This document shows positions 39,587 through 63,761 of a DNA stretch of 64,000 bases, piece by piece. Source of the DNA: Candidatus Uhrbacteria bacterium (GTDB lineage Bacteria > Patescibacteriota > Patescibacteriia > JACRJV01); assembly GCA_016215325.1 (NCBI GenBank), contig JACRJV010000003.1:36191-100190 (forward strand), given 5' to 3'. Positions within the stretch are counted from its first letter, which is position 1; every line of letters begins with the position of its first letter. The position numbers and the translations under genes were made by a program. Below the pieces are notes generated by a model. It saw only the letters and a list, made by a program, of their open reading frames with translations, was not told the DNA's origin and searched no databases.

Positions 39587-42500
39587 TTACGGTTTATTGA
39601 GGCGCAACAAATTGGCATTGCACCCATTTGCTCCAATAGATTTGGCAACATTCGAAGCAACACCGTTGACAAACGGGCCGGGAGTCAGTGCGCTAAACGG
39701 ATCCCCAATCTCCCGGTCGCGGCTAAACCCAGGACGACTGGACGGCCATACCTCAAAGAATGTTCCCAAATACCCATCGGCGATAGATGGTACGTTATTC
39801 GGGCCTTTTGCGCTATAGACATACGCGCGAGCATTGCCGGCACTGGGGCATTGGAAGTTTTTTGCTGCCTCATCCCAGCACGTTTGCGGGTCGTGCGGAC
39901 GATTGCATCCGACAAAGTAATTGAGTGGATCACTTGCGATCCGCGGCCCTCCATCAAGATTCTCTTTCAGGGTCTCCTGCCAGCTCGGCCACGTACTGTA
40001 GCTTAACCCACGAATGAACGTCCCGGCGGTGAGTTCGGGGAATTTGCTGTTTTGCGTGGCATAATTCTTGAGACGCACTTCCAAATCACGCAAGTCAGAA
40101 GCCCGCCGCACATCGCGTTTTAGCGCAGTGCGCACCCCAGGATCGTCAATATTAAGCGCGAACTTCCAACGATTGAGCAGCTGTGGGACAACGGATTGCA
40201 TTTCTTTGCGGGCATCCTTTGTGATCGAGAGCAGATACACGTTCGTAAAGAGCTGCTTATATCGTGAACGGGCAGTCATACCATCAGAACCGACAACTGT
40301 ATTATCAAGCACGTCATCATCGCGCAAGCGGGCCATTGTATAATACCACGTATCCCCTTCCTGGATACCATCCACGCAGTCTTCGCCCTCGGGCAATGTC
40401 GGTGCGTAGGTCCGTCGATTCTGGCAATCAATACTGCTGACGCTCGCGCGGTCGGCGCGAGGATTTACAACCGCGTTCGACTCCAAATACCAGCGAGCCG
40501 CGGAGAATTGTTGGCCATTTTGCATCACCGTGAGAGCAATCAAATCAGGCGCACCTGGTTCTCGGAAGTAGAATTGCTTCAATCGCTGGCTGGCAGGGGT
40601 TCGAAGCCGCGGCAATTCGACGCTTTGCAACCGAAGATCTGGCAACAACTTGGGCATTGCGTAGACTTTAATCGAGCTCAATATTCCGGATGCACCCTCA
40701 TTGTCTGCAATGCGATACCGCGGTTCGATGGATTGCGAAATGGGCGCCACCGGCACATTCAAGCCGCTCCCCTGCCGAAGCCATGTTACACTCACCGGCA
40801 TGACCATCGTCCTGGAGAGGGTCCCTTGGCCTACCGTCACCGTGATGTTGGCCGTACCGTTGCCAACAGAACTGATGGCGAGTTGCTCGCTCCCGAGCCC
40901 CGGCTCATCCTGTCCGGAGTGGATTCTGACAATGTTGTTGTTGCCGTCAGATGATGCCCAGGTATAGGTCAGTCCGGTCTTAATTTGTGTGCCATTTTGA
41001 TCGTAGCCCTCTACCTTAAATAAGTGTTGATTTCCCGCTGTCGCCGGATCATCGTCGTCGCTACAGCGATCGCCCACACACGAAAATGCATCACTGCGCA
41101 CTTCTTCCAACGGCACTCCATCGCGGCAGTACCCAATCGAGAACGATTGATATTGACCATTGATGCTCTGTTCCCCCGGAATCCGGCTGAAGTTACCGCT
41201 GCGCAAATGCATGGTCGCGTCATACTGATTAAAGAGGAAGCGATTGGCATAATCTCGAGTGTCGTCAAAGGGGAATGCCCCCACTTGCGATGGCCAGGGA
41301 TGCTCACAGGGGAAGACCTCAACATTAAGTGAGCGCGTTGCCGATGTCCCACCTTGCGCATAAACGCCATCGCCCTCCGCGGTAAATCGAATCGTCGATG
41401 TCCCAGCATCCCCATTTGCGGTGACATACACGCCGCTTAATCGATTGCTTGCATGGATCGAATTGGGCAAAACAGTCCATTGCGCAGATGTGCTTGGCTT
41501 TGGCTCGAGACGCTGATAGAAGCCCAATTGTTTGTTGAGCATATTGGCGGGCGTACCGCTCAAATCCGACAATGTGAGGAGGGTATCGAGCCGCGGATTT
41601 GAAGGGATCACCTCTGCGCGCACATCCAGCCATAACGGTTGTGTGCCTTCTTGATCGGCATAGGCTTGCAAAAGATAACGATGTTGAACACCCGTCCGCC
41701 CTTTGAGCCCATAATAGCAATTCTCCCACTGCGCGAACGGATCGGACGCGCTGTAATTGATGAGCCGGCTCATTGCCTGCCAGTAGTCCGCCGCTGCCGG
41801 GTCCGGACATACGGTATTTGCGGGCCCATCCATGTCATCAGGGCAGGTATCACGACCAGCGCACAAGAAACTGTCGCTATAGATATTAGTAAGTGGTAAC
41901 TCCTCGTCGGCCGTTGTTGCCCGCTGCAACCGCAGCTGGCGCAACATACCAAGGCTTTGCGGCGCGATAAGATCCAATCGCTTCACTTCGCCGCCAAGCC
42001 CTATGGTCAATGAATTATTCGTCTCGTCTGTTTCTTCCACGGATCGCAACCCATCAAGATCAAGGCGAACCGACCGATATGTTGCGAGTGATTGTGTCGG
42101 ATCCTGGAAGACAACATCCACCACCGCATCCGGATCGAGTGGAGAATCCAGCGGCGGGATCACTCCGGAGCCACCCGGAATGGGGGTTGCAAACGTTGAC
42201 TCTTTAAATATTCCATTTTCATACAATAAGGCGGCAAAATTCTGTGTCACCACCCCAGGCCCCAGGTTGATGGCCCGGAACTTCAGCTTCCATATCCCGC
42301 CTTCTTCAAACCGTTCAAAGGGGCTGGCGGTAAATGCCAAATCCGGAAGATTGCGACCCACAATAACCTGACGACCATTGTTTTCTTCGTCGGATTCTTG
42401 GATCATGTTGTCGCGATAGCTTGGATTCCCCCGTATCTGCGTGACAACATATTCAGAACTCGAATCTGGAAAAACTTCCGTATCCTGATCCAACGAATCC

Positions 42501-45500
42501 AGGACCACGCGCAATGCATTCGGTTGGTTCACATTAATATCAGATGGCAAGATAAATTGCAGCGTCAGTGTTGCGCCAGGATCCATCCGCTTCGGCTCTT
42601 GTCTTGGCCATGTATCGAGCCACAAGAGTTTGTTGTTCCAATAGATGCTCACCGGGAAATCCCGCATTGCAGCGATGGACCCTTGATTTTTTATGACCAC
42701 CTGTCCATAGTGCGTCCGCCGTATCATACCGGAACAAACGGGTAAATTTGCACTCGCGCCATCACAAGTCAACGCGCTTAACGATTCGATTGTAAGGTCG
42801 GGGAGCCGCGGCCCTTGATCAATCCCCGCATACGCCAAGGTGATCCAATTATTGACGGACGATCCGGCGCTACTGAATCCTGGCAGGCCCCATGCCGATA
42901 TTCCCAAATACCCTTCGGGATAGTTATGGGCGATGGCAATCTCCGGCAGTGAATTAACGCGGATCTGCGAATCCGCACGGTCGCCGTTTACTTCGAACGC
43001 AAGGTTCGTAAAGGATCCAATCCACCAGTCTAGCGCGGCCTCAATTTCATGGGCATCCCGTTGCTCGTCGCTCGTGGGCGTCGCGATATCGTAGACACGG
43101 ATACGGTACTGATGTTGTGCTTGCCCATCGCGCGCGTACTCGTCTCTGCCGCCAGTGGGGAACGGCCGATTCTGGGAATCGAAGATTTCAACCGACCGAA
43201 CCAATGGCAACGCAACCGTGACCCGCATGGTTTTGCGCGCCGAACGACCATTGATTTGCCGCGCGATCACGGTCACATCAAAGCTGCCGTTGTCTACCGG
43301 CGTTGCGAACAAATCATCCCCTTGATTGGTGCTCTGCCGTTGATGATTGCTTAACTGAACGCCCGCGACACCCGAAGAACCTTGTCCAACAGCCCACTCG
43401 AACGACGCATCGAGCCGACAATCACCATCGGCACTGCAGGCTTGCGCACTCCACCGATGTTGCACTCCCGGATCAGAACCCCGATCATCGGCGCAACGCG
43501 TCCCCCCACAGGCAAACGAGTCGCTCGTTGCCGGGGTATCAGGGCCAGGATCCACAATAATGTTGACATGATCGAGCAGTTTCGGTCCCGGACCAATTTC
43601 CATGGTCGCAGATGCGTTATTGGAAAGCTCGGAATCGCCCACAGCATTATAGGCAAGGATGCGGTAGTGATAGGGGACATCCTGTTGCACGGTCCGATCG
43701 CGGTAGTCTCGCTCCATGGGGTTGACAAATGTCGCCACCAGACAGAAGGCGCCGCTGCCAGAACCGGGAGTTGTCGGACAGGGATTGGTGGGCAGAGGTA
43801 ACTCCGGCTCATCAGCAATAACGGAATCATCCCTGTACAAGCGGAATCCGAGCACCCCCGGACCAGAAGGATGCGGTGACCATTCGAGCGCAATCGTCCC
43901 GTCATCCGCCCATGCGCTTAAATTTGGTCGGTACGGTTCTGTTCCGTCATGTTCGCAATCCGGACAAATTTTACCACTGGCCGGGTCGGATAATGGCGAG
44001 AGTCCCCACTCGTTATAGGCCAAGATGCGATAATGATAGAGGAGATTCGATCGCACAGCGTCATCGCCGTATCGTGTTTGACTGCGGTCAAATACGCCGA
44101 CCAAACAGAGTTGATCGCCAGCGGCCGAGCCTTGAGCGCCGCACGAGGTGGTCGGCAGCGTCGCGAGCTCATCGGGGATCGGCTGGCGGGATCGATACAA
44201 TCGATACTCGTCAAATGGGGCACCCTCGGTATTCGGCAGCCATCGCACTTCAACCGCCTGGCCGTCATCCGTGGCCGAAAGATCGTCCGGTTTAAACGGG
44301 GCCATCCCGATCACTGTGGCGCACTCTTCTATTGTCGCTTCCCCTTCGCCCATCGCATTATAGGCGGCAACCTGATAACACATCACGGACCCCGGGGCGA
44401 GCCCTTCGTCATCGATCACCGTCTCGCTTACTTGTCGTAAGAAAGCAAAACTCCCGCCGTTGCCGTTGCGGCGATAGATGCGGAATCCCAGAATTGCACC
44501 CGTGCCCGATGAGGCCGGAGCTTGCCATCGGATCGTCGCGTGCTCCACGAGTCCTTGGACGGTCAGTGTACGAGGGACTCCTGGCACTTCACCCACCGCC
44601 GTGGGGGTCGCACATTCTTCGCTCGCGGCAACGCCTTCGCCTTGCTGATTATGGGCGCTTACCGCATAGCAATAGACGCGGCCGTTGGCAAGCCCAGAGT
44701 CCTCCAGACGAAGATTCGTGAGCGTCGTCACATCCTTCAAATAGATCAGCGCTCCGTCGTTGCCTTCACGGCGATACACCGTGTACTTGCCAATCGCAGT
44801 CGTGCCGGCGCTTGCAGGCGCTTCCCATGTGAGGACGATGCGGCGATCCAATCCATCCGCAACAACATTCCGTGGCATTCCTGGAACCACCCCCGACGCC
44901 GTTGGAGTTGCGCACCGTTGGTCGGTGACCTCCCCTTCGCCGTGACCGTTCACCGCAGAAACGGCGTAACAATAGACAGTGCCGTTCTCCAGGTTCGCGT
45001 CGTCAAGCAAGAGCGCTGCCGCATTGTCAACATTTCTATAAAAAACCTGCTCTCCGGCATTGCCCACCTTGCGATACACCGTATACTGATCGATGGGAGA
45101 TGAACCGGCGGAAAGCGGTGGCTGCCATGTAATGCGGATGTTCTCATCCGCGGGAGCTGCCGCCAAGTTCCGAGGAATGCCCGGGACGCTATTGCAGGTC
45201 GTACACATGCTCGCGCTAGCGGGATTGGACAACGGCGAATCCCCGACACCATTATACGCCAGGATACGATAATGGTAGACAGTATCCGGCTTTACCGCAC
45301 CATCAACAGCGGTTTCGGCATCTTCCGCAATTGTTGCAGGAACCAAGCAGAACGCATCACTGGCAGTGCTCGCGTTTGCCCCGCAAGAATCGGTCGGCAA
45401 CGAGGTCGGCGCATCCGGGATTGCTTGGCGCGATCGATACAATCGGAACCCTGTCGGCCTCGCTCCCGCAGGACTCACAGACCACGAGAGCGTAAGCGCA

Positions 45501-48500
45501 GCGGCATTGAGCGGACTATTGGTTGCGGTTAAATCCTGGGGCGCAAACGGCGCACCACTGCCGCCGTCCTCGTATTGGCACGTTGCGTCGCATCCATCGC
45601 CATTATTGCGGTTGCCATCATCGCACTGCTCGCCGGGATTAATGGCATTGTTGCCACATAGCTGCGGGTTCTCTAACTCGCATTGTGCGCTGCATCCATC
45701 GCCATTGCTGGTATTGCCATCATCGCACTGCTCGCCGCTATCGATATCCCCGTTGCCGCACGAAGGTCCTGTGCCAATTGTTGCCTTGGCAAATGCATTA
45801 TTCGAGGACGGCGAGTCACCGGCATCGTTGAATGCGAGAATACGGTAGTGATAGATGGTCCCCACAACTACTGCTTGATCAGAGTAATCTTGTGCAGACT
45901 CCTCAAACCGCGACACAAAACAAAATGCAGCGCTTGCGGATGCAGAATCGGTGCCACAGGAAACAGTCGGCAGATTTTCCACTTCGTCCGGTATGGCCTG
46001 GGTGGAACGGTACAGTCGATACCCTTTGGGCGCAGCCCCGTTGGAATTGGATTGCCACACAAGGTGAACACTGCCCGCGCCCTCTGTCGCAGAAAGTACG
46101 GGCGGGAATGGACGCGTTCCATCCTTGCCGCAGGTGGGGCATGCCTTGGCGCTGGCAGGATTTGAGAGCGCCGAATCCCCATCCGCGCCAATCCCAAGAA
46201 TGCGATAATGATACAAAACGTTGGATGTAACGGCGCGGTCGCGATATTCGCGATCCCCTGCCGCAAGGGCACCACTGGCGAGACAGAATGCATCGCTGGC
46301 ATTTTCTTGGCTTGTTCCGCAAGAAACGGTTGGCAACGGCAATGCCGGCTCATCCGGGATTTGGGATCGGGATCGGTACAATCGATATCCGGTCGGCTGT
46401 GGGCCTTGGCTGTTGGGATCCCATTGGATAATGGTGGCGGTTACTCCATCGGTCGCGGTGAGCGTGGGCGGGAATGGTTCGGCGCCCGTGTGGCCACACG
46501 TCGAACAGGTTTTTGCGCTGCCCGCATTGGAAAGCGCGGAATCGCCCGCATCGTTATATCCCAAAATACGGTAGTGGTAGAGCGTATTGGGCTTAATTGC
46601 TCCATCATTGTAATGACGGATATTGCCTTCGAATTGACTCACTCGGCAGAATTCGTTATTAGCATTGCTCGCATTGTTCCCGCAAGAAACGGTCGGCAAC
46701 GATACAGGAGCGTCGAGTATAGGCTGAGTGGATCGATAGAGAGTGAACCCTATTGGCTGGGGCCCATACGGATTCGGGACCCAATCTACGGCGATCCGGC
46801 TGCTTCCATCCGTTGCTGCAAGGTCCGGTGGATATGGTACCGTTTCTTGCCCTTCGGTGCGCTGGCATGTATTCGTACAACCAACACCCGATTTTCCATT
46901 TTGTCCCCCGGCATCGCACTGCTCGCCCGGATCAACTCGATTGTTCCCACACAGCTTAGCGTCTTCTAATTGACACGAACCACTGCACCCATCCCCATCG
47001 CTAGTGTTGCCATCATCGCATTGTTCTCCTCGGGCAGATTGGACCGTCCCATCCCCGCATTCTTCCCCATAACATTGATCTCCAATCAAGACAGGACGCT
47101 CAAGTGGGCAATCAACTACGTTGCACACTTGGCAATCAGCTCCACCGCAATCAATGCCCGTCTCGTCGGCATCTTGGATGCCATTGGCGCAATGCCCTCC
47201 TCCCAGTCCTCCGCAAGAGCGGCAATCTGCCCCTCCGCAATCCACATTGGTCTCATCCGCATCCCTGCGCAAATTAGTACAGTGGCCGCCCACACAGGTG
47301 TTGGTGACTGGATCGCAGGTTTGCCCGTTTTGGCAATCGACATCGGATCGACATTGCGGTGGTCGGCATGACCCGTCGATACATTGCATGCCATACGGGC
47401 AATCCACATCAGTGGAACACAGCGGCACGCAAATGTTGAGCAGCGTGTTGCAGATTTCGCCATCGCGGCAATCATCGTTGCTATCGCAACCCGGGGGCCG
47501 GCATTGTCCAGAACGCAGATCACAAATAAATCCAGGGCGGCAATCGCTGTCTGCCCGACATTCTTGCCCATTATCCGCGCTCTGGCACCGACCGTTGACG
47601 CAGCGGCCGAACGGGCAATCGGCATCCACCGAGCATTGGAGATCTCGACTCGTTAATATATCAAACGGCAACCCATTGGAGGCGACCTCTGCTTGATCGG
47701 ACACTGTCTTCAACCCCCATGGGCACACGCCACGGAAGGTGACCCAACGGCATTCTTGTCGGATGTTGTAGTGGATCACGGTGCGCAATACGACGTCGTC
47801 GCTTTCGGCGGAATCTGGCACTCGCCATCGCACGCTTTCGGGCGTCCAGCTTTGATAGCGCGCATCGAGCCGACCAAGGGTAACCCCCCGAGCATCGGAA
47901 GCCTTACCAAAACGCACACCGCGCGCGACAATAGAATCACCCGTCAATCCATACGATGGGATCAGCCGACAGAGCCCAGGACCAATCGGATCTTGCGTCA
48001 GCGTGAACGCCCCGCTCTGTTGCGGTTTGGTGGTGAGCGCGCCCGCCGGGGTGGTCGGAGCGGTTGTCAACCGAACCAATCCATTTTTTGCGCCCTTGGG
48101 GATTTGGACAATAACCCAGCGATCAGACCACGCAGATCCCGCACACTCTTCCGGCAATATGGCTTGGGCGTCGTCCGTGGGATCTTTGGGGTCTCCTTCA
48201 AAAATCACTTTGCCCGGCACATATCCAAAATTTCCACCGATGATCGTCATCCACCCGCCCTCTGGGCCCCGGTCTGGACTCAAATGATCAATAAACGGGT
48301 CCATGGTAAATGTCACAGGGTTAGATTGGTTCTTGACGACCGTTGCAAGGACATACCCCGTACGCGACCGATTGGGCACCTCCACTTCTGCGCTCGCATC
48401 GGACCACGAACCATATTTCTCCACCGGAATGCCAATAAATTTTACAACGCTGTCTTGGCGCGTATCGCCCAAGTTGTCACCACGCAACGCAACCGGGTCG

Positions 48501-49894
48501 GTGACGGCTCCATGATCTGGATCAAGAGTGCAGACCGCTGGACGAATTGTAGTGTTGGAGGTAAAGGGCCGGACGTTGCTCGTCCCCGCGCTGGTTGTCA
48601 CCGTAACGGGATAGGATCCCAGCTTGAGCGTCGGCGGCGCTTGCGCAATGATTTCGTTATTGGACCATCGCGAACATCCTAAGCCCGCAGGAAGATCGCC
48701 AAACTTGACAATGCTGGTATCCTGCGAACGGCCAAAATTCTTCCCTGTGATCGTAACATAGGTATTTGCATAACTGGCAGCGATCCCGTTATCCGGCGTA
48801 ATGGCGGTGATGATGGGTTTGCCTTCCACGCAAATGCCGCCGACACAATATCGTGAAGCGCAGTCATAATTAAACCGGCATTCGGCCCCTAACGGAAGCC
48901 CGGGTGTTGGTGTAAATGTCCACGCATAGGTGCACGAAAGCGCCTTGGGCGGATCAAACGTGACGGTAATGGGGTCCAACATTGTCCCATTGCCATCCGT
49001 GTCATACAACCGCACCTGCAACTTGGCCGTTTGGCCGACTTTCTTGCCAATCGTACTCCAGGTGATGGTAAGCACGCCGTTGGCCGAAGGGTCGAATGCG
49101 CTCCATGCGACAGGAGAGCCGTCCGACAGCAACACCCCATGCGAAATCGCGCGATCATCCGTAGCGCCCACCAGCACGATCACTTGGTCATTGGCAGACA
49201 CATGGCTGCCGTCCCGCGGCGTTATCCACGAGCCCGTTGGTGCGATCGTATCGATCCCGGTGCCAATACTGATTTCGCGTTCACACGGGTGTTGATTGGA
49301 ACAACTCAAACTCGCCCCCGAACGATTGCGGATATCTGCCCCCTTAAGCGCAATGCCCACACGAGCGTTGTCCGAAAAGCACCCTTGCTTAGGGGAAGCC
49401 GCACAGGAGGCTGCGGGGTGAAACTCCATCCACGAAACCGCCGCATTCGCGTCCGTCGGAGCGAGCGCCCATGCGCCCGGCAGTAACGCATTGTTCACTG
49501 TGACACTGGCCAATGTACCAAAGTCACGCACACTTGCCTCATTCAGTGGCTGTGAAAAGAATAAACGAATTGCTGCATTGGACGGCGCTGCCGTTATGGC
49601 AGGCGTTATCGCCGACAAATAAAATGTTCCAACCGGCGGCAACACTGTTTGGGGCAGGATCGGCGTGACCGTTATCGTTGGTTGCGGTCGCGTGAGCCAC
49701 CAACCGAATGTAAGAGAAATTAACAGCCCCACCACTGTTATGGCTCCAGATACCGTCATTTTCCGTACTGAATTGACACCCGTCGGATCGATTGTTTCGC
49801 TGCTCTTCTCTCTCCACGCAACAACAAATGCGCCGGCGCCGACGAGCGTAGAAATAATCGCAAGAGATTCGATGAACCAAAGGAAGATTCTCAT
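39587..49894 (-). CDS. Giant (3435 aa) cell-surface protein: N-terminal anchor, IPT/TIG domains, Myxococcus-type Cys-rich repeats, Fn3-like repeat array, large beta-rich C-terminal region
   Basis: Uninterrupted 10.3-kb ORF; GEQCDDGNTSDGDGCSGSCQLE-type Cys-rich repeats (x4); >=8 repeats with YHYRIL(A/G)YN..GDS.LSN.ASA; three classical Fn3 units (TVYRK...YCYAVSA.N..GEG). Confidence 0.8.
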   Translation of the reverse strand: MRIFLWFIESLAIISTLVGAGAFVVAWREKSSETIDPTGVNSVRKMTVSGAITVVGLLISLTFGWWLTRPQPTITVTPILPQTVLPPVGTFYLSAITPAITAAPSNAAIRLFFSQPLNEASVRDFGTLASVTVNNALLPGAWALAPTDANAAVSWMEFHPAASCAASPKQGCFSDNARVGIALKGADIRNRSGASLSCSNQHPCEREISIGTGIDTIAPTGSWITPRDGSHVSANDQVIVLVGATDDRAISHGVLLSDGSPVAWSAFDPSANGVLTITWSTIGKKVGQTAKLQVRLYDTDGNGTMLDPITVTFDPPKALSCTYAWTFTPTPGLPLGAECRFNYDCASRYCVGGICVEGKPIITAITPDNGIAASYANTYVTITGKNFGRSQDTSIVKFGDLPAGLGCSRWSNNEIIAQAPPTLKLGSYPVTVTTSAGTSNVRPFTSNTTIRPAVCTLDPDHGAVTDPVALRGDNLGDTRQDSVVKFIGIPVEKYGSWSDASAEVEVPNRSRTGYVLATVVKNQSNPVTFTMDPFIDHLSPDRGPEGGWMTIIGGNFGYVPGKVIFEGDPKDPTDDAQAILPEECAGSAWSDRWVIVQIPKGAKNGLVRLTTAPTTPAGALTTKPQQSGAFTLTQDPIGPGLCRLIPSYGLTGDSIVARGVRFGKASDARGVTLGRLDARYQSWTPESVRWRVPDSAESDDVVLRTVIHYNIRQECRWVTFRGVCPWGLKTVSDQAEVASNGLPFDILTSRDLQCSVDADCPFGRCVNGRCQSADNGQECRADSDCRPGFICDLRSGQCRPPGCDSNDDCRDGEICNTLLNICVPLCSTDVDCPYGMQCIDGSCRPPQCRSDVDCQNGQTCDPVTNTCVGGHCTNLRRDADETNVDCGGADCRSCGGLGGGHCANGIQDADETGIDCGGADCQVCNVVDCPLERPVLIGDQCYGEECGDGTVQSARGEQCDDGNTSDGDGCSGSCQLEDAKLCGNNRVDPGEQCDAGGQNGKSGVGCTNTCQRTEGQETVPYPPDLAATDGSSRIAVDWVPNPYGPQPIGFTLYRSTQPILDAPVSLPTVSCGNNASNANNEFCRVSQFEGNIRHYNDGAIKPNTLYHYRILGYNDAGDSALSNAGSAKTCSTCGHTGAEPFPPTLTATDGVTATIIQWDPNSQGPQPTGYRLYRSRSQIPDEPALPLPTVSCGTSQENASDAFCLASGALAAGDREYRDRAVTSNVLYHYRILGIGADGDSALSNPASAKACPTCGKDGTRPFPPVLSATEGAGSVHLVWQSNSNGAAPKGYRLYRSTQAIPDEVENLPTVSCGTDSASASAAFCFVSRFEESAQDYSDQAVVVGTIYHYRILAFNDAGDSPSSNNAFAKATIGTGPSCGNGDIDSGEQCDDGNTSNGDGCSAQCELENPQLCGNNAINPGEQCDDGNRNNGDGCDATCQYEDGGSGAPFAPQDLTATNSPLNAAALTLSWSVSPAGARPTGFRLYRSRQAIPDAPTSLPTDSCGANASTASDAFCLVPATIAEDAETAVDGAVKPDTVYHYRILAYNGVGDSPLSNPASASMCTTCNSVPGIPRNLAAAPADENIRITWQPPLSAGSSPIDQYTVYRKVGNAGEQVFYRNVDNAAALLLDDANLENGTVYCYAVSAVNGHGEGEVTDQRCATPTASGVVPGMPRNVVADGLDRRIVLTWEAPASAGTTAIGKYTVYRREGNDGALIYLKDVTTLTNLRLEDSGLANGRVYCYAVSAHNQQGEGVAASEECATPTAVGEVPGVPRTLTVQGLVEHATIRWQAPASSGTGAILGFRIYRRNGNGGSFAFLRQVSETVIDDEGLAPGSVMCYQVAAYNAMGEGEATIEECATVIGMAPFKPDDLSATDDGQAVEVRWLPNTEGAPFDEYRLYRSRQPIPDELATLPTTSCGAQGSAAGDQLCLVGVFDRSQTRYGDDAVRSNLLYHYRILAYNEWGLSPLSDPASGKICPDCEHDGTEPYRPNLSAWADDGTIALEWSPHPSGPGVLGFRLYRDDSVIADEPELPLPTNPCPTTPGSGSGAFCLVATFVNPMERDYRDRTVQQDVPYHYRILAYNAVGDSELSNNASATMEIGPGPKLLDHVNIIVDPGPDTPATSDSFACGGTRCADDRGSDPGVQHRWSAQACSADGDCRLDASFEWAVGQGSSGVAGVQLSNHQRQSTNQGDDLFATPVDNGSFDVTVIARQINGRSARKTMRVTVALPLVRSVEIFDSQNRPFPTGGRDEYARDGQAQHQYRIRVYDIATPTSDEQRDAHEIEAALDWWIGSFTNLAFEVNGDRADSQIRVNSLPEIAIAHNYPEGYLGISAWGLPGFSSAGSSVNNWITLAYAGIDQGPRLPDLTIESLSALTCDGASANLPVCSGMIRRTHYGQVVIKNQGSIAAMRDFPVSIYWNNKLLWLDTWPRQEPKRMDPGATLTLQFILPSDINVNQPNALRVVLDSLDQDTEVFPDSSSEYVVTQIRGNPSYRDNMIQESDEENNGRQVIVGRNLPDLAFTASPFERFEEGGIWKLKFRAINLGPGVVTQNFAALLYENGIFKESTFATPIPGGSGVIPPLDSPLDPDAVVDVVFQDPTQSLATYRSVRLDLDGLRSVEETDETNNSLTIGLGGEVKRLDLIAPQSLGMLRQLRLQRATTADEELPLTNIYSDSFLCAGRDTCPDDMDGPANTVCPDPAAADYWQAMSRLINYSASDPFAQWENCYYGLKGRTGVQHRYLLQAYADQEGTQPLWLDVRAEVIPSNPRLDTLLTLSDLSGTPANMLNKQLGFYQRLEPKPSTSAQWTVLPNSIHASNRLSGVYVTANGDAGTSTIRFTAEGDGVYAQGGTSATRSLNVEVFPCEHPWPSQVGAFPFDDTRDYANRFLFNQYDATMHLRSGNFSRIPGEQSINGQYQSFSIGYCRDGVPLEEVRSDAFSCVGDRCSDDDDPATAGNQHLFKVEGYDQNGTQIKTGLTYTWASSDGNNNIVRIHSGQDEPGLGSEQLAISSVGNGTANITVTVGQGTLSRTMVMPVSVTWLRQGSGLNVPVAPISQSIEPRYRIADNEGASGILSSIKVYAMPKLLPDLRLQSVELPRLRTPASQRLKQFYFREPGAPDLIALTVMQNGQQFSAARWYLESNAVVNPRADRASVSSIDCQNRRTYAPTLPEGEDCVDGIQEGDTWYYTMARLRDDDVLDNTVVGSDGMTARSRYKQLFTNVYLLSITKDARKEMQSVVPQLLNRWKFALNIDDPGVRTALKRDVRRASDLRDLEVRLKNYATQNSKFPELTAGTFIRGLSYSTWPSWQETLKENLDGGPRIASDPLNYFVGCNRPHDPQTCWDEAAKNFQCPSAGNARAYVYSAKGPNNVPSIADGYLGTFFEVWPSSRPGFSRDREIGDPFSALTPGPFVNGVASNVAKSIGANGCNANLLRLNKP
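43597..46837 (-). repeat. Intragenic tandem array of ~130-150-aa Fn3-like repeat units inside the giant gene (approximate bounds)
   Basis: Recurrent motif PxGYRLYRS...P.(L)PT.SCG...AFC...YHYRILAYN..GDS.LSNPASA at regular spacing between aa ~1020 and ~2100. Confidence 0.55.
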
Positions 49895-59821: not shown

Positions 59822-60460
59822 TTATTCCTTCGGTAAATATCTTCCGCGATTATCCTCCGATCCCGCTATGGCAACCCACTTCGCGATAATACCTAACAGC
59901 TTTTTCTGTCGCTCAATATAGGCGGCAAACTCTTTCTTGCGTTGATCAGAGGTCTTTTTATCTTTTGGTGCCCGGTAATCATCATCGTGATACCCTGCAG
60001 CAAGGGTATTCCGCGCTTTATCAACAGAGTTAATAAATTCCCGGAGTGCGCTCATGAAAAATTGATCACCCCCATGCTTTTTTGCTCCGGCAATGAATTC
60101 TTTGTTCATGTTTTCAATTCGTTCCATCAACTCTTGGGTTCTGGCTTCCCTCTGGTCAATCTCAGAAAAACCGAGACGCGCGCAGGCCTTATCGATATCA
60201 GAGCAGTAGCGATGGAGCCCAATGTCGCGAATATGACCAACTCCTTTTTCGACCGTCTTTAATTCTGCTGCGATAGCGGGCTGACGATCGAATGGGGTTT
60301 CGGGGTTCGATTGCGTCATTACTTCTGCATACGCATTCTGCATCGAAACCAAAGCACTAAATCCAACTATTATTTTGGCACTTTGGACCTTCTCCCGCAG
60401 CGCCTGCATAAAAGATTTTCCTTCATCATTCTCAACGCTGCCCGATTGTTCAAATTTCAT
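59822..60460 (-). CDS. Hypothetical protein (212 aa, charged, no recognised domain)
   Basis: Clean ORF with ATG start; no SD; internal hydrophobic segment AKIIVGFSALVSMQNAYA near N-terminus. Confidence 0.4.
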   Translation of the reverse strand: MKFEQSGSVENDEGKSFMQALREKVQSAKIIVGFSALVSMQNAYAEVMTQSNPETPFDRQPAIAAELKTVEKGVGHIRDIGLHRYCSDIDKACARLGFSEIDQREARTQELMERIENMNKEFIAGAKKHGGDQFFMSALREFINSVDKARNTLAAGYHDDDYRAPKDKKTSDQRKKEFAAYIERQKKLLGIIAKWVAIAGSEDNRGRYLPKE

Positions 60461-60683: not shown

Positions 60684-61616
60684 TTACATTTTTCGTCGTT
60701 GTTCCCACTCCTGCCACGCCACGAGCAATGGGCTGGCGATAAAAATGGAGCTGTAGGTCCCAAAGAATACGCCGATCAATAAGGTCAAAATAAAGTCTCG
60801 AATCGTTTCACCGCCAAAGAACAGTGTTGTCGCAAGAATAATCAATAACGTGACAGAGGTGTTGATGGAGCGAATAAACGTTTCGTTGACACTGCGGTTG
60901 ACCACCTCTGCAAACGCCAGGTTGCGATGCTTTAGTAAATTCTCCCGGGTTCGATCAAATACCACAATGGTATCATGGACCGAAAAGCCTAAGATGGTCA
61001 ACAAGGCAACAACCAGGAGGGCATTGGCCTCGTAGCCATAGAGGCGCCCCATGAGTGCAAACGCGCCCGTCGGAATGATTACGTCGTGCAACAACGCAAC
61101 AATCGTTGCCACGCCGTATTTCCAGCTCTTCACTGGGTACGAGACTTTACGGAATGACCAAGTGATGAGCAACACAATGCCGATGATCGCAAAGATGATC
61201 GCCCAAATCGTTTTGCGCCGGAGTTCGCTGCCAATAATAGGCCCGACCGTTTCAAACTGATCTTCTGTGACACGAGGGTTTTTGGGATCCTGCCCGGGGA
61301 ACGTTTTTTGAAGCGCGGGCAACACTTGATCATGTTCAGTGCTCGTCAGTGGCCGAGTGCGCAACGTAAACGAATTGTCCCCCACCGGGCTTATCGAGAT
61401 CGTATCAAGGTTTAATCCGCCCAGTGCATCATGGGTCGCTTGAACGTTGGGCCGCTCTCCGACGAAGCTCACTTCTATCGCGGTCCCGCCGGTAAAATCA
61501 ATACCAGGCTTCAGCCCCCACAGCAGCAACGCAATAATGCTGGCCACAACTAATGCCCCCGAAATCATGAAATAAATTTTTCGATGGGAAATGATGGGAA
61601 ACGTCATACCATTCAT
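60684..61616 (-). CDS. secF: Protein translocase subunit SecF
   Basis: GIDFTGG and 6-TM topology characteristic of SecF; directly downstream of secD. Confidence 0.9.
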   Translation of the reverse strand: MNGMTFPIISHRKIYFMISGALVVASIIALLLWGLKPGIDFTGGTAIEVSFVGERPNVQATHDALGGLNLDTISISPVGDNSFTLRTRPLTSTEHDQVLPALQKTFPGQDPKNPRVTEDQFETVGPIIGSELRRKTIWAIIFAIIGIVLLITWSFRKVSYPVKSWKYGVATIVALLHDVIIPTGAFALMGRLYGYEANALLVVALLTILGFSVHDTIVVFDRTRENLLKHRNLAFAEVVNRSVNETFIRSINTSVTLLIILATTLFFGGETIRDFILTLLIGVFFGTYSSIFIASPLLVAWQEWEQRRKM

Positions 61617-63761
61617 TTATTGGTTTATTGGTTTATTGACGCGGGCAAACATCCAATGGTGTCTTTGCACCCAGGGTAAAATCCATTTGAGCAGTGTCCG
61701 AGTGACCGTAATAGCGGAAAATAAACTTACGATAATGCCCAACGCCAAGGTAATAGCAAACCCTTTAATATTACTTGAGCTAAACGTATAGAGAATAACA
61801 CAGGTGATCAAACTCGATGCGTTTGAATCTCGGATCGAGGTCCAAGCGCGCCCAAACCCTTCGCGCAAGGCTTCAGTCAACGGTTTACCCCATCGCAATT
61901 CTTCTTTCATGCGCTCGAAAATCAGAATATTTGCATCAACGGCCATTCCGATAGACAGCAGCACACCTGCGATACCCGCAAATGTCAAGGTAATTCCCGC
62001 AATCTTAAATACACTCAACAATACTGCCGTGTAGAGGAGGAGGGCGCCACTGGCGAGCACGCCAGGCAATCGGTAGAGCAGAATCATAAACAGGATGATC
62101 GCGATCACACCGTATATCCCTGCTTTCAAACTCTTTGCGATAGATTCTGCCCCCAAGCTTGCTCCCACAATTTGCTGATTGAGCAAGTTGATTGGCACGG
62201 GCAATGCTCCGGCATTCAACCGTTGCGCCAATAATTTTGCTTCGGGCACAGTGAAGCTGCCCGTGATGACCGCTCGCCCCCCATCGATTTGCGATTGCAC
62301 CCGCGGAACACTAATGGGGCTGCCATCTAAAAAGATGGCGATGGGTTTGCCGATATTGCGCTTCGTGAGCTCGGAGAATAATTTCCCACCCTCATCATCA
62401 AATTGAATGCTCACTGTGGGCTCCCCGGTATTGGGGTCGAACTCTACTGCCGCTTTCTCTAACTGCTTCCCGCCGAGACCGGTATATTGGAAATCATCTT
62501 GTGGCCCTAAGATGTCTTCTTTCAAGGTCTTTCGTGTTGTGATGCGATACAAATGATACTCCGGCGTCTTCGAAGTCACCAAGCGTTCACCAGTTTTATA
62601 AATCAAATGGAACCCGAAGTCTGTTTCTACGGGCCCCACAATAGAGCCCACCGAGGCCTCAAAGGCGGCATCCTCAAACGGTTTGGTCATGGCGCCCACG
62701 CCAAAAAAATCTAAATCTCCACCGTTGGTCTTGGCGGTGGGATCCGTAGAGTTTTCTTTTGCTAAATCTGCAAAGTTGTCTTTAGTTGCCTTGGATTTGA
62801 GTTCTTCGATTTTTTTATCGGCTTCGGCACGGGTTGACTTGCTCTCACAGCGTTGCTTGCCTTCAAAGCAAACCAACAAGTGGCTCGCTCGCACTTCTTT
62901 GACTTTATTATTGACCGATTCGACCCGCACAACATTGTAAGCGTCAGCAGTTTCCACGACCCGCGGGAAGATGTATGGCGGTTTTTGCGGAGATGACTTT
63001 ATCGCTTTGACAAGATCGCCCAGTTGCGGATTGTCTTCTTTCACAAGACCTAAATCCCCCTTGGCGGTGACGACGCCGATCCCTTCGTTTTTGGCTTCAA
63101 ATACTGTTGTAAAATCGGCTCCGGGCTTGAGCGCCTCTTTGAGGATCTCATCGGCTCGCTTCTTGGCCTCTGCGTTTTTCTGTTCAATTTCTTTCTTCTG
63201 CTGCTCGGTAAGTTCTGTGGCGGGGTTCGGGTTCTGTTCTTTGAATTCGAGCAGCGGCGTCTCGCCAATGAGTTTAATAGCTTGATTAATATCTTGGATG
63301 CCAGCGAGCTCCACAATCACCCGCCAATGATCGCCGACTTTCGCCGTTTGGATCAATGGTTCCGCAACGCCAAAGGCATTCACGCGACGTTCGATCACGT
63401 CGCGCACGCCATCGAGTGCCGATGACTGTTCGTTGCCAGGGACCTTGGACACATCGGCCTCATAAACGAGCCGTGTCCCCCCCTTGAGATCCAACCCCAA
63501 ACGATATGGTGTGTCAGGGAACTTCTTCCAAGGCCATGCAATATTGTCGAGGACCCAATTCCCCTGTTGTGGCGCGGCGTAACCGGCAGAAAGAACGAAT
63601 AGCACCGCTAATGCGGCGACGGCCCACCAAATGCGGGCGCGAGGGGTATGGAAAAGGCTTGAAAATCCTTTGGAAGCGGAAGAGAATCGACTTGCCATAT
63701 TCACTTCACTAAGTTGCCAAACAATGGGACTAGTATACGCCGAAAATTGCGGCTGCGTCAA
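61617..63761 (-). CDS. secD: Protein translocase subunit SecD carrying an inserted parvulin-type PPIase domain
   Basis: SecD TM/P1 architecture plus internal segment VRASHLLV...GGDLDFFGVGAMTKPFEDAAFEASVGSIVGPVETDFGFHLI matching the PpiC/parvulin rotamase signature; 714 aa. Confidence 0.8.
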   Translation of the reverse strand: MTQPQFSAYTSPIVWQLSEVNMASRFSSASKGFSSLFHTPRARIWWAVAALAVLFVLSAGYAAPQQGNWVLDNIAWPWKKFPDTPYRLGLDLKGGTRLVYEADVSKVPGNEQSSALDGVRDVIERRVNAFGVAEPLIQTAKVGDHWRVIVELAGIQDINQAIKLIGETPLLEFKEQNPNPATELTEQQKKEIEQKNAEAKKRADEILKEALKPGADFTTVFEAKNEGIGVVTAKGDLGLVKEDNPQLGDLVKAIKSSPQKPPYIFPRVVETADAYNVVRVESVNNKVKEVRASHLLVCFEGKQRCESKSTRAEADKKIEELKSKATKDNFADLAKENSTDPTAKTNGGDLDFFGVGAMTKPFEDAAFEASVGSIVGPVETDFGFHLIYKTGERLVTSKTPEYHLYRITTRKTLKEDILGPQDDFQYTGLGGKQLEKAAVEFDPNTGEPTVSIQFDDEGGKLFSELTKRNIGKPIAIFLDGSPISVPRVQSQIDGGRAVITGSFTVPEAKLLAQRLNAGALPVPINLLNQQIVGASLGAESIAKSLKAGIYGVIAIILFMILLYRLPGVLASGALLLYTAVLLSVFKIAGITLTFAGIAGVLLSIGMAVDANILIFERMKEELRWGKPLTEALREGFGRAWTSIRDSNASSLITCVILYTFSSSNIKGFAITLALGIIVSLFSAITVTRTLLKWILPWVQRHHWMFARVNKPINQ

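What the first reader, a model, noticed from the sequence alone, without database searches (positions are those of the whole stretch)
61617..63761. SecD with an embedded parvulin-type peptidyl-prolyl isomerase domain
The SecD periplasmic/extracytoplasmic region contains a ~100-aa segment with the full parvulin signature (ASHLLV...GGDLDFFGVGAMTKPFEDAAFEASVGSIVGPVETDFGFHLI) not present in model SecD proteins. It would place a PrsA/PpiC-like foldase directly on the translocon accessory complex. That is attractive for an organism exporting a 3435-aa repeat protein.
Basis: partly seen in the sequence, partly recalled or inferred. Interest (0 to 1): 0.6.

Follow-up and report, generated by a model that had tools for sequence, protein, structure and literature searches.

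The report
SecD with built-in twin parvulin foldase
This Candidatus Uhrbacteria (CPR/Patescibacteria) SecD carries two parvulin-type prolyl-isomerase domains spliced into its outward-facing P1 domain, a conserved lineage trait that fixes a protein-folding module onto the secretion machinery and that no paper I could search describes.

Summary
ORF 61617-63761 (minus strand, 714 aa; likely start ATG 63698, 693 aa) is a bona fide SecD, with secF starting directly after its stop codon. Rotamase HMMs hit aa 275-389 at E=2e-29.

The insert is larger than reported. About 235 aa (aa ~175-409) replace a 25-aa connector between the P1 base and P1 head of T. thermophilus SecDF. It holds two parvulin modules:
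- Module A is degenerate and has lost both catalytic His.
- Module B is canonical, with the His/Asp/His set and proline pocket conserved in 118-120 of 120 homologues, plus a co-varying Cys pair that looks like a disulfide.

It is not a mis-assembly. All 120 best homologues and 24 GTDB species genomes share the architecture, with secF downstream. These include Uhr-, Magasanik-, Falkow-, Parcu- and Peribacteria.

Best explanation: a translocon-tethered foldase/holdase placed next to the substrate-binding P1 head. This is a covalent version of the SurA-SecDF, PpiD-SecYEG and Mycoplasma PrsA-like dome associations.

The proposed link to the 3435-aa protein has no support. Databases label the protein plain "SecD", and no paper in the searchable library describes the fusion. 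Verdict: new variant of a known kind, moderate interest.

The parts
61617..63761 (-). secD ORF (714 aa from TTG 63761; probable true start ATG 63698, giving 693 aa)
   Evidence: TIGR01129 scores 384 bits (cutoff 244.4). A 100%-identical 693-aa protein is named SecD [Candidatus Uhrbacteria bacterium].
63576..63644 (-). TM1 (aa ~40-62), which places everything up to TM2 outside the cytoplasm
   Evidence: AF2 helix 19-41 in 693-aa numbering; hydrophobic stretch WWAVAALAVLFVLSAGYAA.
63231..63503 (-). P1 base, N-terminal part (GG motif plus SecD_1st, aa 87-177)
   Evidence: Pfam Sec_GG 87-103 and SecD_1st 118-177. Aligns to TtSecDF residues 35-116 at 48% identity.
62535..63230 (-). The whole insert (aa ~178-409), replacing a 25-aa base-to-head connector of T. 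thermophilus SecDF
   Evidence: AF2 pLDDT is 90-97 over this region.
62916..63218 (-). Parvulin-like module A (aa ~182-282). It is degenerate: there is no N-terminal His strand, and Asn276 stands where the second catalytic His should be.
   Evidence: Pfam Rotamase is sub-threshold on the isolated segment (E=0.0017, 19.7 bits vs 21.7, profile 7-96 of 97). Family-profile hhalign against module B gives probability 99.0%, E=4.4e-18 over 79 columns. The His position is N/S/G/E/D in the family.
62583..62915 (-). Parvulin module B (aa ~283-393), canonical and probably catalytic. Key residues are H294, S338, D340, L350, M358, F362 and H385, plus the Cys pair C298/C305.
   Evidence: Foldseek match to the Pin1 catalytic domain: TM 0.75, rmsd 2.9 A.
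62532..62582 (-). Strand following module B (aa ~394-410, ...EYHLYRITTRK). It is predicted as a continuation of module B's last strand, and I infer that it supplies the missing first strand of module A.
   Evidence: AF2 DSSP shows long strands 253-276 and 362-389 in 693-aa numbering. The pairing itself is an inference, because no coordinates were available.
62196..62477 (-). P1 head subdomain (aa 429-522)
   Evidence: Pfam PF22599, E=6.2e-31. 43% identical to TtSecDF 142-253.
61662..62195 (-). TM2-TM6 (aa 523-700), including the conserved membrane Asp (GMAVDANILIFER) that aligns with TtSecDF D340
60684..61616 (-). secF (310 aa). Its ATG follows the secD TAA stop with no gap.
   Evidence: TIGR00966 scores 276.9 bits against a 160 cutoff. 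Junction sequence. The same synteny appears in an independent assembly and in 24 genomes.

Best explanation
This is a real, lineage-conserved SecD of a Candidatus Uhrbacteria (CPR/Patescibacteria) bacterium. The short connector between its P1 base and its mobile, substrate-binding P1 head has been replaced by a tandem parvulin cassette. SecDF is thought to use the proton-motive force to swing the P1 head, which captures unfolded chains as they leave SecYEG (PMC5974789). I propose the cassette works as a foldase/holdase tethered at that exit. Module A has lost its catalytic His residues and would act as a binding or chaperone surface, like SurA P1 or the PpiD parvulin. Module B keeps the full parvulin active site and would catalyse prolyl cis/trans isomerisation of the emerging chain. 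The fusion makes permanent an association that other bacteria achieve non-covalently. What is shown here: the architecture, its conservation, the intact active-site residues and the extracytoplasmic location. What is inferred: enzymatic activity, action on nascent secreted proteins, and any coupling to P1-head movement.
For: The protein is a genuine SecD with an adjacent secF. The rotamase match is E=2e-29. A second parvulin-like module is detected by profile-profile comparison (probability 99%, E=4.4e-18). NCBIfam SurA aligns across both modules (aa 197-395 to SurA 193-386), and Foldseek hits SurA over about 290 columns and Pin1 at TM 0.75. The residues equivalent to Pin1 H59, S111, C113 (as D/E), L122, M130, F134 and H157 are conserved in 118-120 of 120 homologues, and both His are invariant in 24 more divergent members. 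The Cys298/Cys305 pair is present together or absent together (119 vs 1; 21 vs 3), as expected for a disulfide outside the cytoplasm. The insert lies between TM1 and TM2 at the base-to-head connector, and the AF2 model has pLDDT 89 overall and 90-97 in the insert. The architecture recurs in all 120 top homologues, in 23 of 150 representatives at 50% identity and in 24 GTDB species genomes with secF downstream. The module A-to-B junction aligns colinearly at 40% identity with a parvulin-to-parvulin junction of a stand-alone triple-parvulin protein. Literature analogues exist: AlphaFold models dock SurA's P1 and P2 parvulins onto the SecDF P1 head (PMC9987972); PrsA-like lipoproteins form a dome on the Mycoplasma Sec translocon and cross-link to SecD; PpiD-YfgM associates with SecYEG (PMC9643414).
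Against: There is no biochemical or genetic evidence for any member of this family. Conserved active-site residues do not prove activity, and several translocon-associated parvulins (PpiD, SurA P1) are inactive yet functional chaperones. pTM is only 0.54, so the position of the cassette relative to the P1-head cavity is not established, and model coordinates could not be inspected. CPR genomes are reported to encode PrsA as well (PMC9166423), so the fusion need not replace a free foldase. Some CPR lineages have only one parvulin at this site (L025, L027), so the tandem arrangement is not obligatory.
Confidence: 0.7

Rival explanations
1. Assembly or annotation artefact: secD was joined to a prsA/ppiC gene by mis-assembly or a frameshift.
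For: Metagenome-assembled CPR genomes can contain chimeric contigs, and model SecDs lack the domain.
Against: The ORF is continuous with no GC or GC3 break. The insert is flanked on both sides by SecD P1 sequence, so it is nested rather than end-joined. An identical protein appears in a separate Logan assembly. The same architecture is found in all 120 top homologues down to 49% identity and in 24 species genomes.
Confidence: 0.01
2. Non-catalytic role: both parvulin modules serve only as a holdase or substrate-binding platform, or as a structural brace that tunes the P1-head swing. On this view, isomerase chemistry is irrelevant.
For: Module A has lost both catalytic His residues. PpiD's parvulin and SurA P1 are known inactive chaperone domains (established knowledge; PMC9643414). 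AF2 predicts long continuous strands rigidly linking the two modules. The insert occupies one of the two connectors on which the head moves.
Against: In module B the whole catalytic and proline-pocket set is essentially invariant over 120+24 sequences, while the surrounding positions vary (module B mean column identity 0.66). That pattern points to selection on the active site itself.
Confidence: 0.2
3. Docking module: the cassette mainly mediates protein-protein contacts, for example with SecYEG, YidC, cell-wall or pilus assembly components, or host-attachment machinery, rather than acting on general secretory substrates.
For: Parvulin domains are used for partner contacts: SurA parvulins are modelled as docking onto the SecDF P1 head (PMC9987972). 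CPR cells rely heavily on surface appendages.
Against: No conserved neighbour apart from secF was seen in the loci examined. The conserved active site argues for a peptide substrate. There is no direct evidence for any partner.
Confidence: 0.08

Closest known systems
Canonical SecD/SecDF (T. thermophilus 3AQP/5YHF, D. radiodurans 5XAN, E. coli SecD)
   Same: TM1 - P1 base - P1 head - TM2-6 layout. The GG motif, the membrane Asp equivalent to TtSecDF D340 and an adjacent secF are all present. It is 43-48% identical to TtSecDF in the base and head blocks and gives top Foldseek hits at E=1e-20 to 1e-21.
   Different: About 235 aa containing two parvulin modules replace the 25-aa base-to-head connector. 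No solved SecD or SecDF carries a PPIase domain.
SurA (E. coli, 1M5Y) and its proposed docking on the SecDF P1 head
   Same: Tandem parvulins with a degenerate first and a canonical second domain. NCBIfam SurA and Foldseek align across both modules. AlphaFold models place SurA P1 and P2 on the SecDF P1 head (PMC9987972), which is the same pairing that is covalent here.
   Different: There is no SurA N-terminal or C-terminal chaperone core. The SurA family score is 43.8 bits against a 394 cutoff. SurA is soluble and serves outer-membrane proteins, whereas CPR are predicted to be monoderm (PMC9166423).
PrsA lipoprotein foldase (Bacillota) and the M. pneumoniae PrsA-like dome proteins Mpn444/436/489
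   Same: An extracytoplasmic parvulin acting at the membrane-wall interface on Sec substrates. Module B has Asp/Glu at the Pin1 C113 position, as PrsA does. The Mycoplasma proteins sit on the Sec translocon and cross-link to SecD.
   Different: It is not a lipoprotein, and no PrsA NC chaperone domain was found. PrsA family scores are 51-57 bits against cutoffs of 343-361. Here the foldase is part of the SecD polypeptide rather than a separate subunit.
PpiD-YfgM (E. coli)
   Same: A membrane-anchored parvulin-containing chaperone positioned at the periplasmic exit of SecYEG (PMC9643414).
   Different: PpiD is a separate single-pass protein with one inactive parvulin and a SurA-like chaperone domain, and it binds SecY rather than being part of SecD.

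Membership tests
SecD (TIGR01129 / Pfam SecD_1st + SecDF_P1_head + SecD_SecF_C) | Family HMM score above the curated cutoff | tested here: met
   TIGR01129 scores 384 bits against 244.4. Pfam SecD_1st scores 61.4 against 27, P1_head 107.1 against 27, and SecD_SecF_C 54.6 against 20.5.
SecD (TIGR01129 / Pfam SecD_1st + SecDF_P1_head + SecD_SecF_C) | Topology of TM1, a large extracytoplasmic P1 and five further TM helices; conserved proton-path Asp in TM4 | tested here: met
   AF2 helices at 19-41 and 516-677 in 693-aa numbering. GMAVDANILIFER aligns with TtSecDF ...AAVDGNVLSFER, placing the Asp opposite D340, and the Asp is invariant in 120 sequences.
SecD (TIGR01129 / Pfam SecD_1st + SecDF_P1_head + SecD_SecF_C) | Partner secF adjacent or fused | tested here: met
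   secF lies at 60684-61616 and starts directly after the secD stop. The same holds in the related loci, and SecD and SecF are fused in L009 and L024.
SecD (TIGR01129 / Pfam SecD_1st + SecDF_P1_head + SecD_SecF_C) | Stimulates Sec-dependent export using the proton-motive force | not testable with these tools
   This needs genetics or biochemistry.
Parvulin PPIase (PF00639 / PF13616), module B | HMM score above the cutoff and a parvulin fold | tested here: met
   Rotamase_3 scores 102.9 against 22.5 and Rotamase 90.2 against 21.7. Foldseek match to the Pin1 catalytic domain has TM 0.75 and rmsd 2.9 A over 113 columns.
Parvulin PPIase (PF00639 / PF13616), module B | Catalytic His pair, Cys/Asp, and the Leu/Met/Phe proline pocket | tested here: met
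Conserved in 118-120 of 120 sequences.
Parvulin PPIase (PF00639 / PF13616), module B | Measured cis/trans isomerase activity | not testable with these tools
   An enzyme assay is required.
Parvulin PPIase, module A | HMM score above the cutoff and catalytic His residues | tested here: not met
   PF00639 scores 19.7 bits against a 21.7 cutoff. Homology is shown only by profile-profile comparison. Both His positions are lost. This is a parvulin-derived fold and probably not an enzyme.
PrsA foldase (NCBIfam NF002827, NF002846, NF002824) | Family score above the cutoff; lipoprotein anchor; N/C-terminal chaperone domain embracing the parvulin | tested here: not met
   Scores are 51-57 bits against cutoffs of 343-361. 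The anchor is SecD itself. The non-B part of the insert is parvulin-like, not PrsA NC-like.
SurA (NCBIfam NF008038) | Family score above the cutoff; N-terminal chaperone core plus two parvulins | tested here: not met
   43.8 bits against 394. Only the two-parvulin part is matched (aa 197-395 to SurA 193-386).

The most novel reading that the evidence does not exclude
The fusion is a 'Rosetta stone' showing that the SecDF P1 head and a tandem-parvulin chaperone form one conserved functional unit across bacteria. In CPR, the proton-driven swing of the P1 head would be mechanically coupled to the foldase, giving a single-polypeptide 'pull-and-fold' machine. The membrane-anchored 'P1-head + parvulin' mini-proteins (P0147, P0149, P0243) would be a second, independent form of the same unit.
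Probability: 0.3. Interest if true: 0.7.

Novelty: new variant of a known kind. Interest (0 to 1): 0.5.

Why it matters
How bacteria hand unfolded chains from the Sec channel to extracytoplasmic folding factors is under active study. Current examples are PpiD/YfgM at SecYEG, SurA at the holotranslocon, and the 2025 Mycoplasma Sec-PrsA-like dome.

A natural fusion of a tandem parvulin next to the SecD P1 head, conserved across CPR lineages, gives independent evolutionary support for the proposed parvulin-to-P1-head partnership. It also offers a simple single-polypeptide system for testing whether folding catalysis is coupled to SecDF's power stroke.

It bears on annotation too. These proteins are labelled plain "SecD", and KEGG-style PrsA calls in CPR may need a second look.

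Tried and rejected
- **Mis-assembly:** rejected.
- **Insert as a complete PrsA (NC domain plus parvulin):** rejected. The region upstream of the canonical domain is itself parvulin-like, and PrsA family scores fall far below the cutoffs.
- **Link to the 3435-aa ORF at 39587-49894:** not supported. The fusion accompanies secD-secF across many genomes; I did not analyse the giant ORF itself.
- **Another parvulin in the window:** none found with the custom HMMs.
- **AFDB50 fold search:** the library was unavailable.
- **phmmer of module A alone against PDB:** gave only designed-repeat noise and a weak PrsA hit at E=0.19.
- **Literature:** seven full-text searches found no description of a SecD-parvulin fusion. 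That is absence only within the held library.

Full report
**1. Observation**

The window contains one uninterrupted ORF at 61617..63761 on the minus strand (714 aa from a TTG). An identical 693-aa protein, starting at the internal ATG (window 63698), is in NCBI as [quoted passage not shown] on a 109-kb contig. It also appears in a separate Logan assembly with the same secD-secF-(195 aa)-pth neighbourhood.

Pfam gives SecD_1st at 118-177, Rotamase_3 at 275-388 (E=2e-29), Rotamase at 294-389 (E=1.7e-25), SecDF_P1_head at 429-522 (E=6e-31) and SecD_SecF_C at 526-694. NCBIfam TIGR01129 (secD) scores 384 bits against a cutoff of 244.4. secF (60684-61616; TIGR00966 at 277 bits against 160) begins at the base after the secD TAA stop. 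GC and GC3 show no discontinuity at the insert.

**2. Anatomy: the insert is larger and more structured than reported**

Two blocks align to T. thermophilus SecDF. Residues 88-174 match Tt 35-116 at 48% identity, and residues 410-523 match Tt 142-253 at 43% identity. Tt has 25 residues between these blocks; this protein has about 235.

In Tt the Pfam SecD_1st and P1_head domains flank the same short connector. The extra material therefore replaces the N-terminal connector between the P1 base and the mobile P1 head. It does not lie inside the head fold.

- **Module B (aa ~283-393)** is the canonical parvulin seen by Pfam.
- **Module A (aa ~182-282)** reads ...ALKPGADF...KGDLGLV...AYNVVRV. On its own it gives a full-length but sub-threshold rotamase match (PF00639, E=0.0017, 19.7 bits vs 21.7, profile 7-96 of 97).
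- A profile-profile comparison of the family sub-alignments of the two segments gives 99.0% probability, E=4.4e-18 over 79 columns. Module A is thus a second, degenerate parvulin.
- NCBIfam SurA aligns across both modules (aa 197-395 to SurA 193-386).
- Foldseek on the AF2 model hits SurA over about 290 columns and the Pin1 catalytic domain at TM 0.75, rmsd 2.9 A.

The AF2 model is confident (mean pLDDT 89.2; 90-97 across the insert), but pTM is 0.54, so the relative domain positions are uncertain. DSSP shows two unusually long strands, 253-276 and 362-389 in 693-aa numbering. The first runs from module A's last strand into module B's first strand. The second extends module B's last strand through ...EYHLYRITTRK.

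Module A has no N-terminal strand of its own. I therefore infer that this trailing strand completes module A's sheet. This is inference only, because no coordinates were available.

The A-to-B junction aligns colinearly at 40% identity with a parvulin-to-parvulin junction of a stand-alone triple-parvulin protein (P0122). That is consistent with the cassette having been excised from a multi-parvulin gene.

**3. Is the enzyme site intact?**

| Module B residue | Pin1 equivalent |
|---|---|
| H294 | H59 |
| S338 | S111 |
| D340 | C113 (Asp, as in PrsA) |
| L350 | L122 |
| M358 | M130 |
| F362 | F134 |
| H385 | H157 |

Across 120 homologues these positions are 98-100% conserved, with D340 being D or E. 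In 24 more divergent members both His are invariant. Module A has N/S/G/E/D at the second-His position and no first His.

A family-specific Cys pair (C298/C305, HILIC..GA..C) is present in 119 of 120 sequences and absent as a pair in the remaining one. In the divergent set it is present in 21 of 24 and absent as a pair in the other 3. It never occurs singly, which is the signature of a disulfide and fits a location outside the cytoplasm.

**4. Distribution**

- All 120 best hits (49-84% identity) carry the same Pfam set, including the rotamase domain. Where named, they are Uhrbacteria, Magasanikbacteria, Parcubacteria or Patescibacteria.
- An exhaustive search of 1.84 billion representatives with the insert alone returned 23,502 hits, because parvulins are ubiquitous. 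Among the best 150, my SecD-specific HMMs found 23 SecD proteins with base-parA-parB-head-TM, one of them a 1015-aa fused SecDF.
All show the same architecture with secF downstream. They come from Uhr-, Magasanik-, Falkow-, Parcu- and Peribacteria, and SecD and SecF are fused in L009 and L024.
- Variants with only one detected parvulin occur in Komeilibacteria (L025), Gracilibacteria (L027) and Peribacteraceae (L026).
- Several records are titled Gammaproteobacteria, Binatia or Baltobacteraceae. These are probably mislabelled MAGs.

Mis-assembly is excluded.

**5. Mechanism**

Established knowledge: SecDF uses the proton-motive force, and its P1 head swings between membrane-facing and upright forms. 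A cavity in the head contacts preproteins leaving SecYEG (PMC5974789).

The cassette sits on one of the two connectors that tie the head to the base. My best explanation (about 0.7) is a translocon-tethered foldase/holdase. Module A would bind unfolded segments, and module B would isomerise prolyl bonds as chains emerge.

Independent support comes from systems where the same partnership is non-covalent:
- AlphaFold models consistently dock SurA's two parvulin domains onto the SecDF P1 head, and SurA binds the holotranslocon (PMC9987972).
- PrsA-like lipoproteins with an active parvulin form a dome on the M. pneumoniae Sec translocon and cross-link to SecD (bioRxiv 10.1101/2025.04.25.650208 and 10.1101/2024.09.05.611430).
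- PpiD-YfgM associates with SecYEG (PMC9643414).

The main rival (about 0.2) is a purely non-catalytic chaperone or brace role. A partner-docking role is less likely (about 0.08).

The trait is lineage-wide.

**6. Comparison and membership**

The protein is a member of SecD; every feature that could be tested here was met. Module B is a member of the parvulin family by HMM score, fold and active-site residues; activity was not testable.

It is not a member of PrsA (51-57 bits against cutoffs of 343-361, no lipoprotein anchor, no NC domain). It is not a member of SurA either (43.8 bits against 394, no chaperone core). It plausibly works like them.

**7. Novelty**

Public databases hold hundreds of these sequences, and their precomputed Pfam hits already show the rotamase domain. 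They are nevertheless named simply "SecD". Seven full-text searches and the most relevant papers contain no description of the fusion. One CPR survey lists SecD and PrsA separately (PMC9166423).

I rate it a new variant of a known kind, with interest 0.5. A Sec specialist would find it useful and moderately surprising, but it extends current models rather than overturning them.

**8. Limits**

- There is no experimental evidence for any member of the family.
- AFDB was unavailable.
- The genome scan was truncated.
- The presence or absence of stand-alone PrsA-like genes in the same genomes was not assessed.

Noticed in passing
L081:2250-3143 (protein P0149); also P0147 and P0243: These are small (281-297 aa) membrane-anchored proteins made of a SecDF P1-head-like domain (Pfam PF22599, E=2.4e-16 for P0147) followed by a parvulin carrying the same HILIC..GA..C motif. 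They have no SecD membrane domain. P0149 is a complete gene just downstream of a Trypsin_2 + PG_binding_1 protease gene. This is a second, stand-alone pairing of a P1 head with a parvulin.
   Followed up: partly
It lies in the higher-GC part of the window. No evidence links it specifically to the SecD fusion, and I did not analyse it.
   Followed up: no
window 1-24000 versus 24000-58000: GC content steps from about 0.46-0.50 to about 0.51-0.58 and then returns to about 0.49 near secDF. The cause was not examined; it could be an island, the composition of the giant gene, or strand effects.
   Followed up: no
L002, L003, L012-L015, L017, L020, L021; L001; P0077, P0088: Genomes carrying the CPR-type SecD-parvulin gene are titled 'uncultured Gammaproteobacteria bacterium', 'Candidatus Binatia' or 'Baltobacteraceae'. 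These are probably mislabelled or mis-binned Patescibacteria MAGs.
   Followed up: no
L009:3434-6523, L024:1517-4654, P0164: In some Magasanikbacteria and Peribacteria, the parvulin-bearing SecD is fused with SecF into a single polypeptide of about 1015-1046 aa.
   Followed up: partly
L025:3671-5371 (Komeilibacteria), L027:3101-5362 (Gracilibacteria), L026:2-1927 (Peribacteraceae): In these SecD variants only one parvulin module is detected at the same site. L027 has an unassigned gap of about 120 aa where module A would be. This suggests stepwise gain or loss of modules.
   Followed up: partly
window 59822-60460 (-): This 212-aa ORF lies immediately downstream of secF. It is conserved in the independent assembly, where it is called as 195 aa, and has no Pfam hit on record. 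Its function is unknown.
   Followed up: no
P0155, P0161 and about 60 similar proteins of 620-770 aa; P0122-like proteins of 360-415 aa: The closest non-SecD relatives of the insert are stand-alone proteins with two or three tandem parvulin domains. They are plausible sources of the cassette. Their taxonomy and anchoring were not examined.
   Followed up: partly
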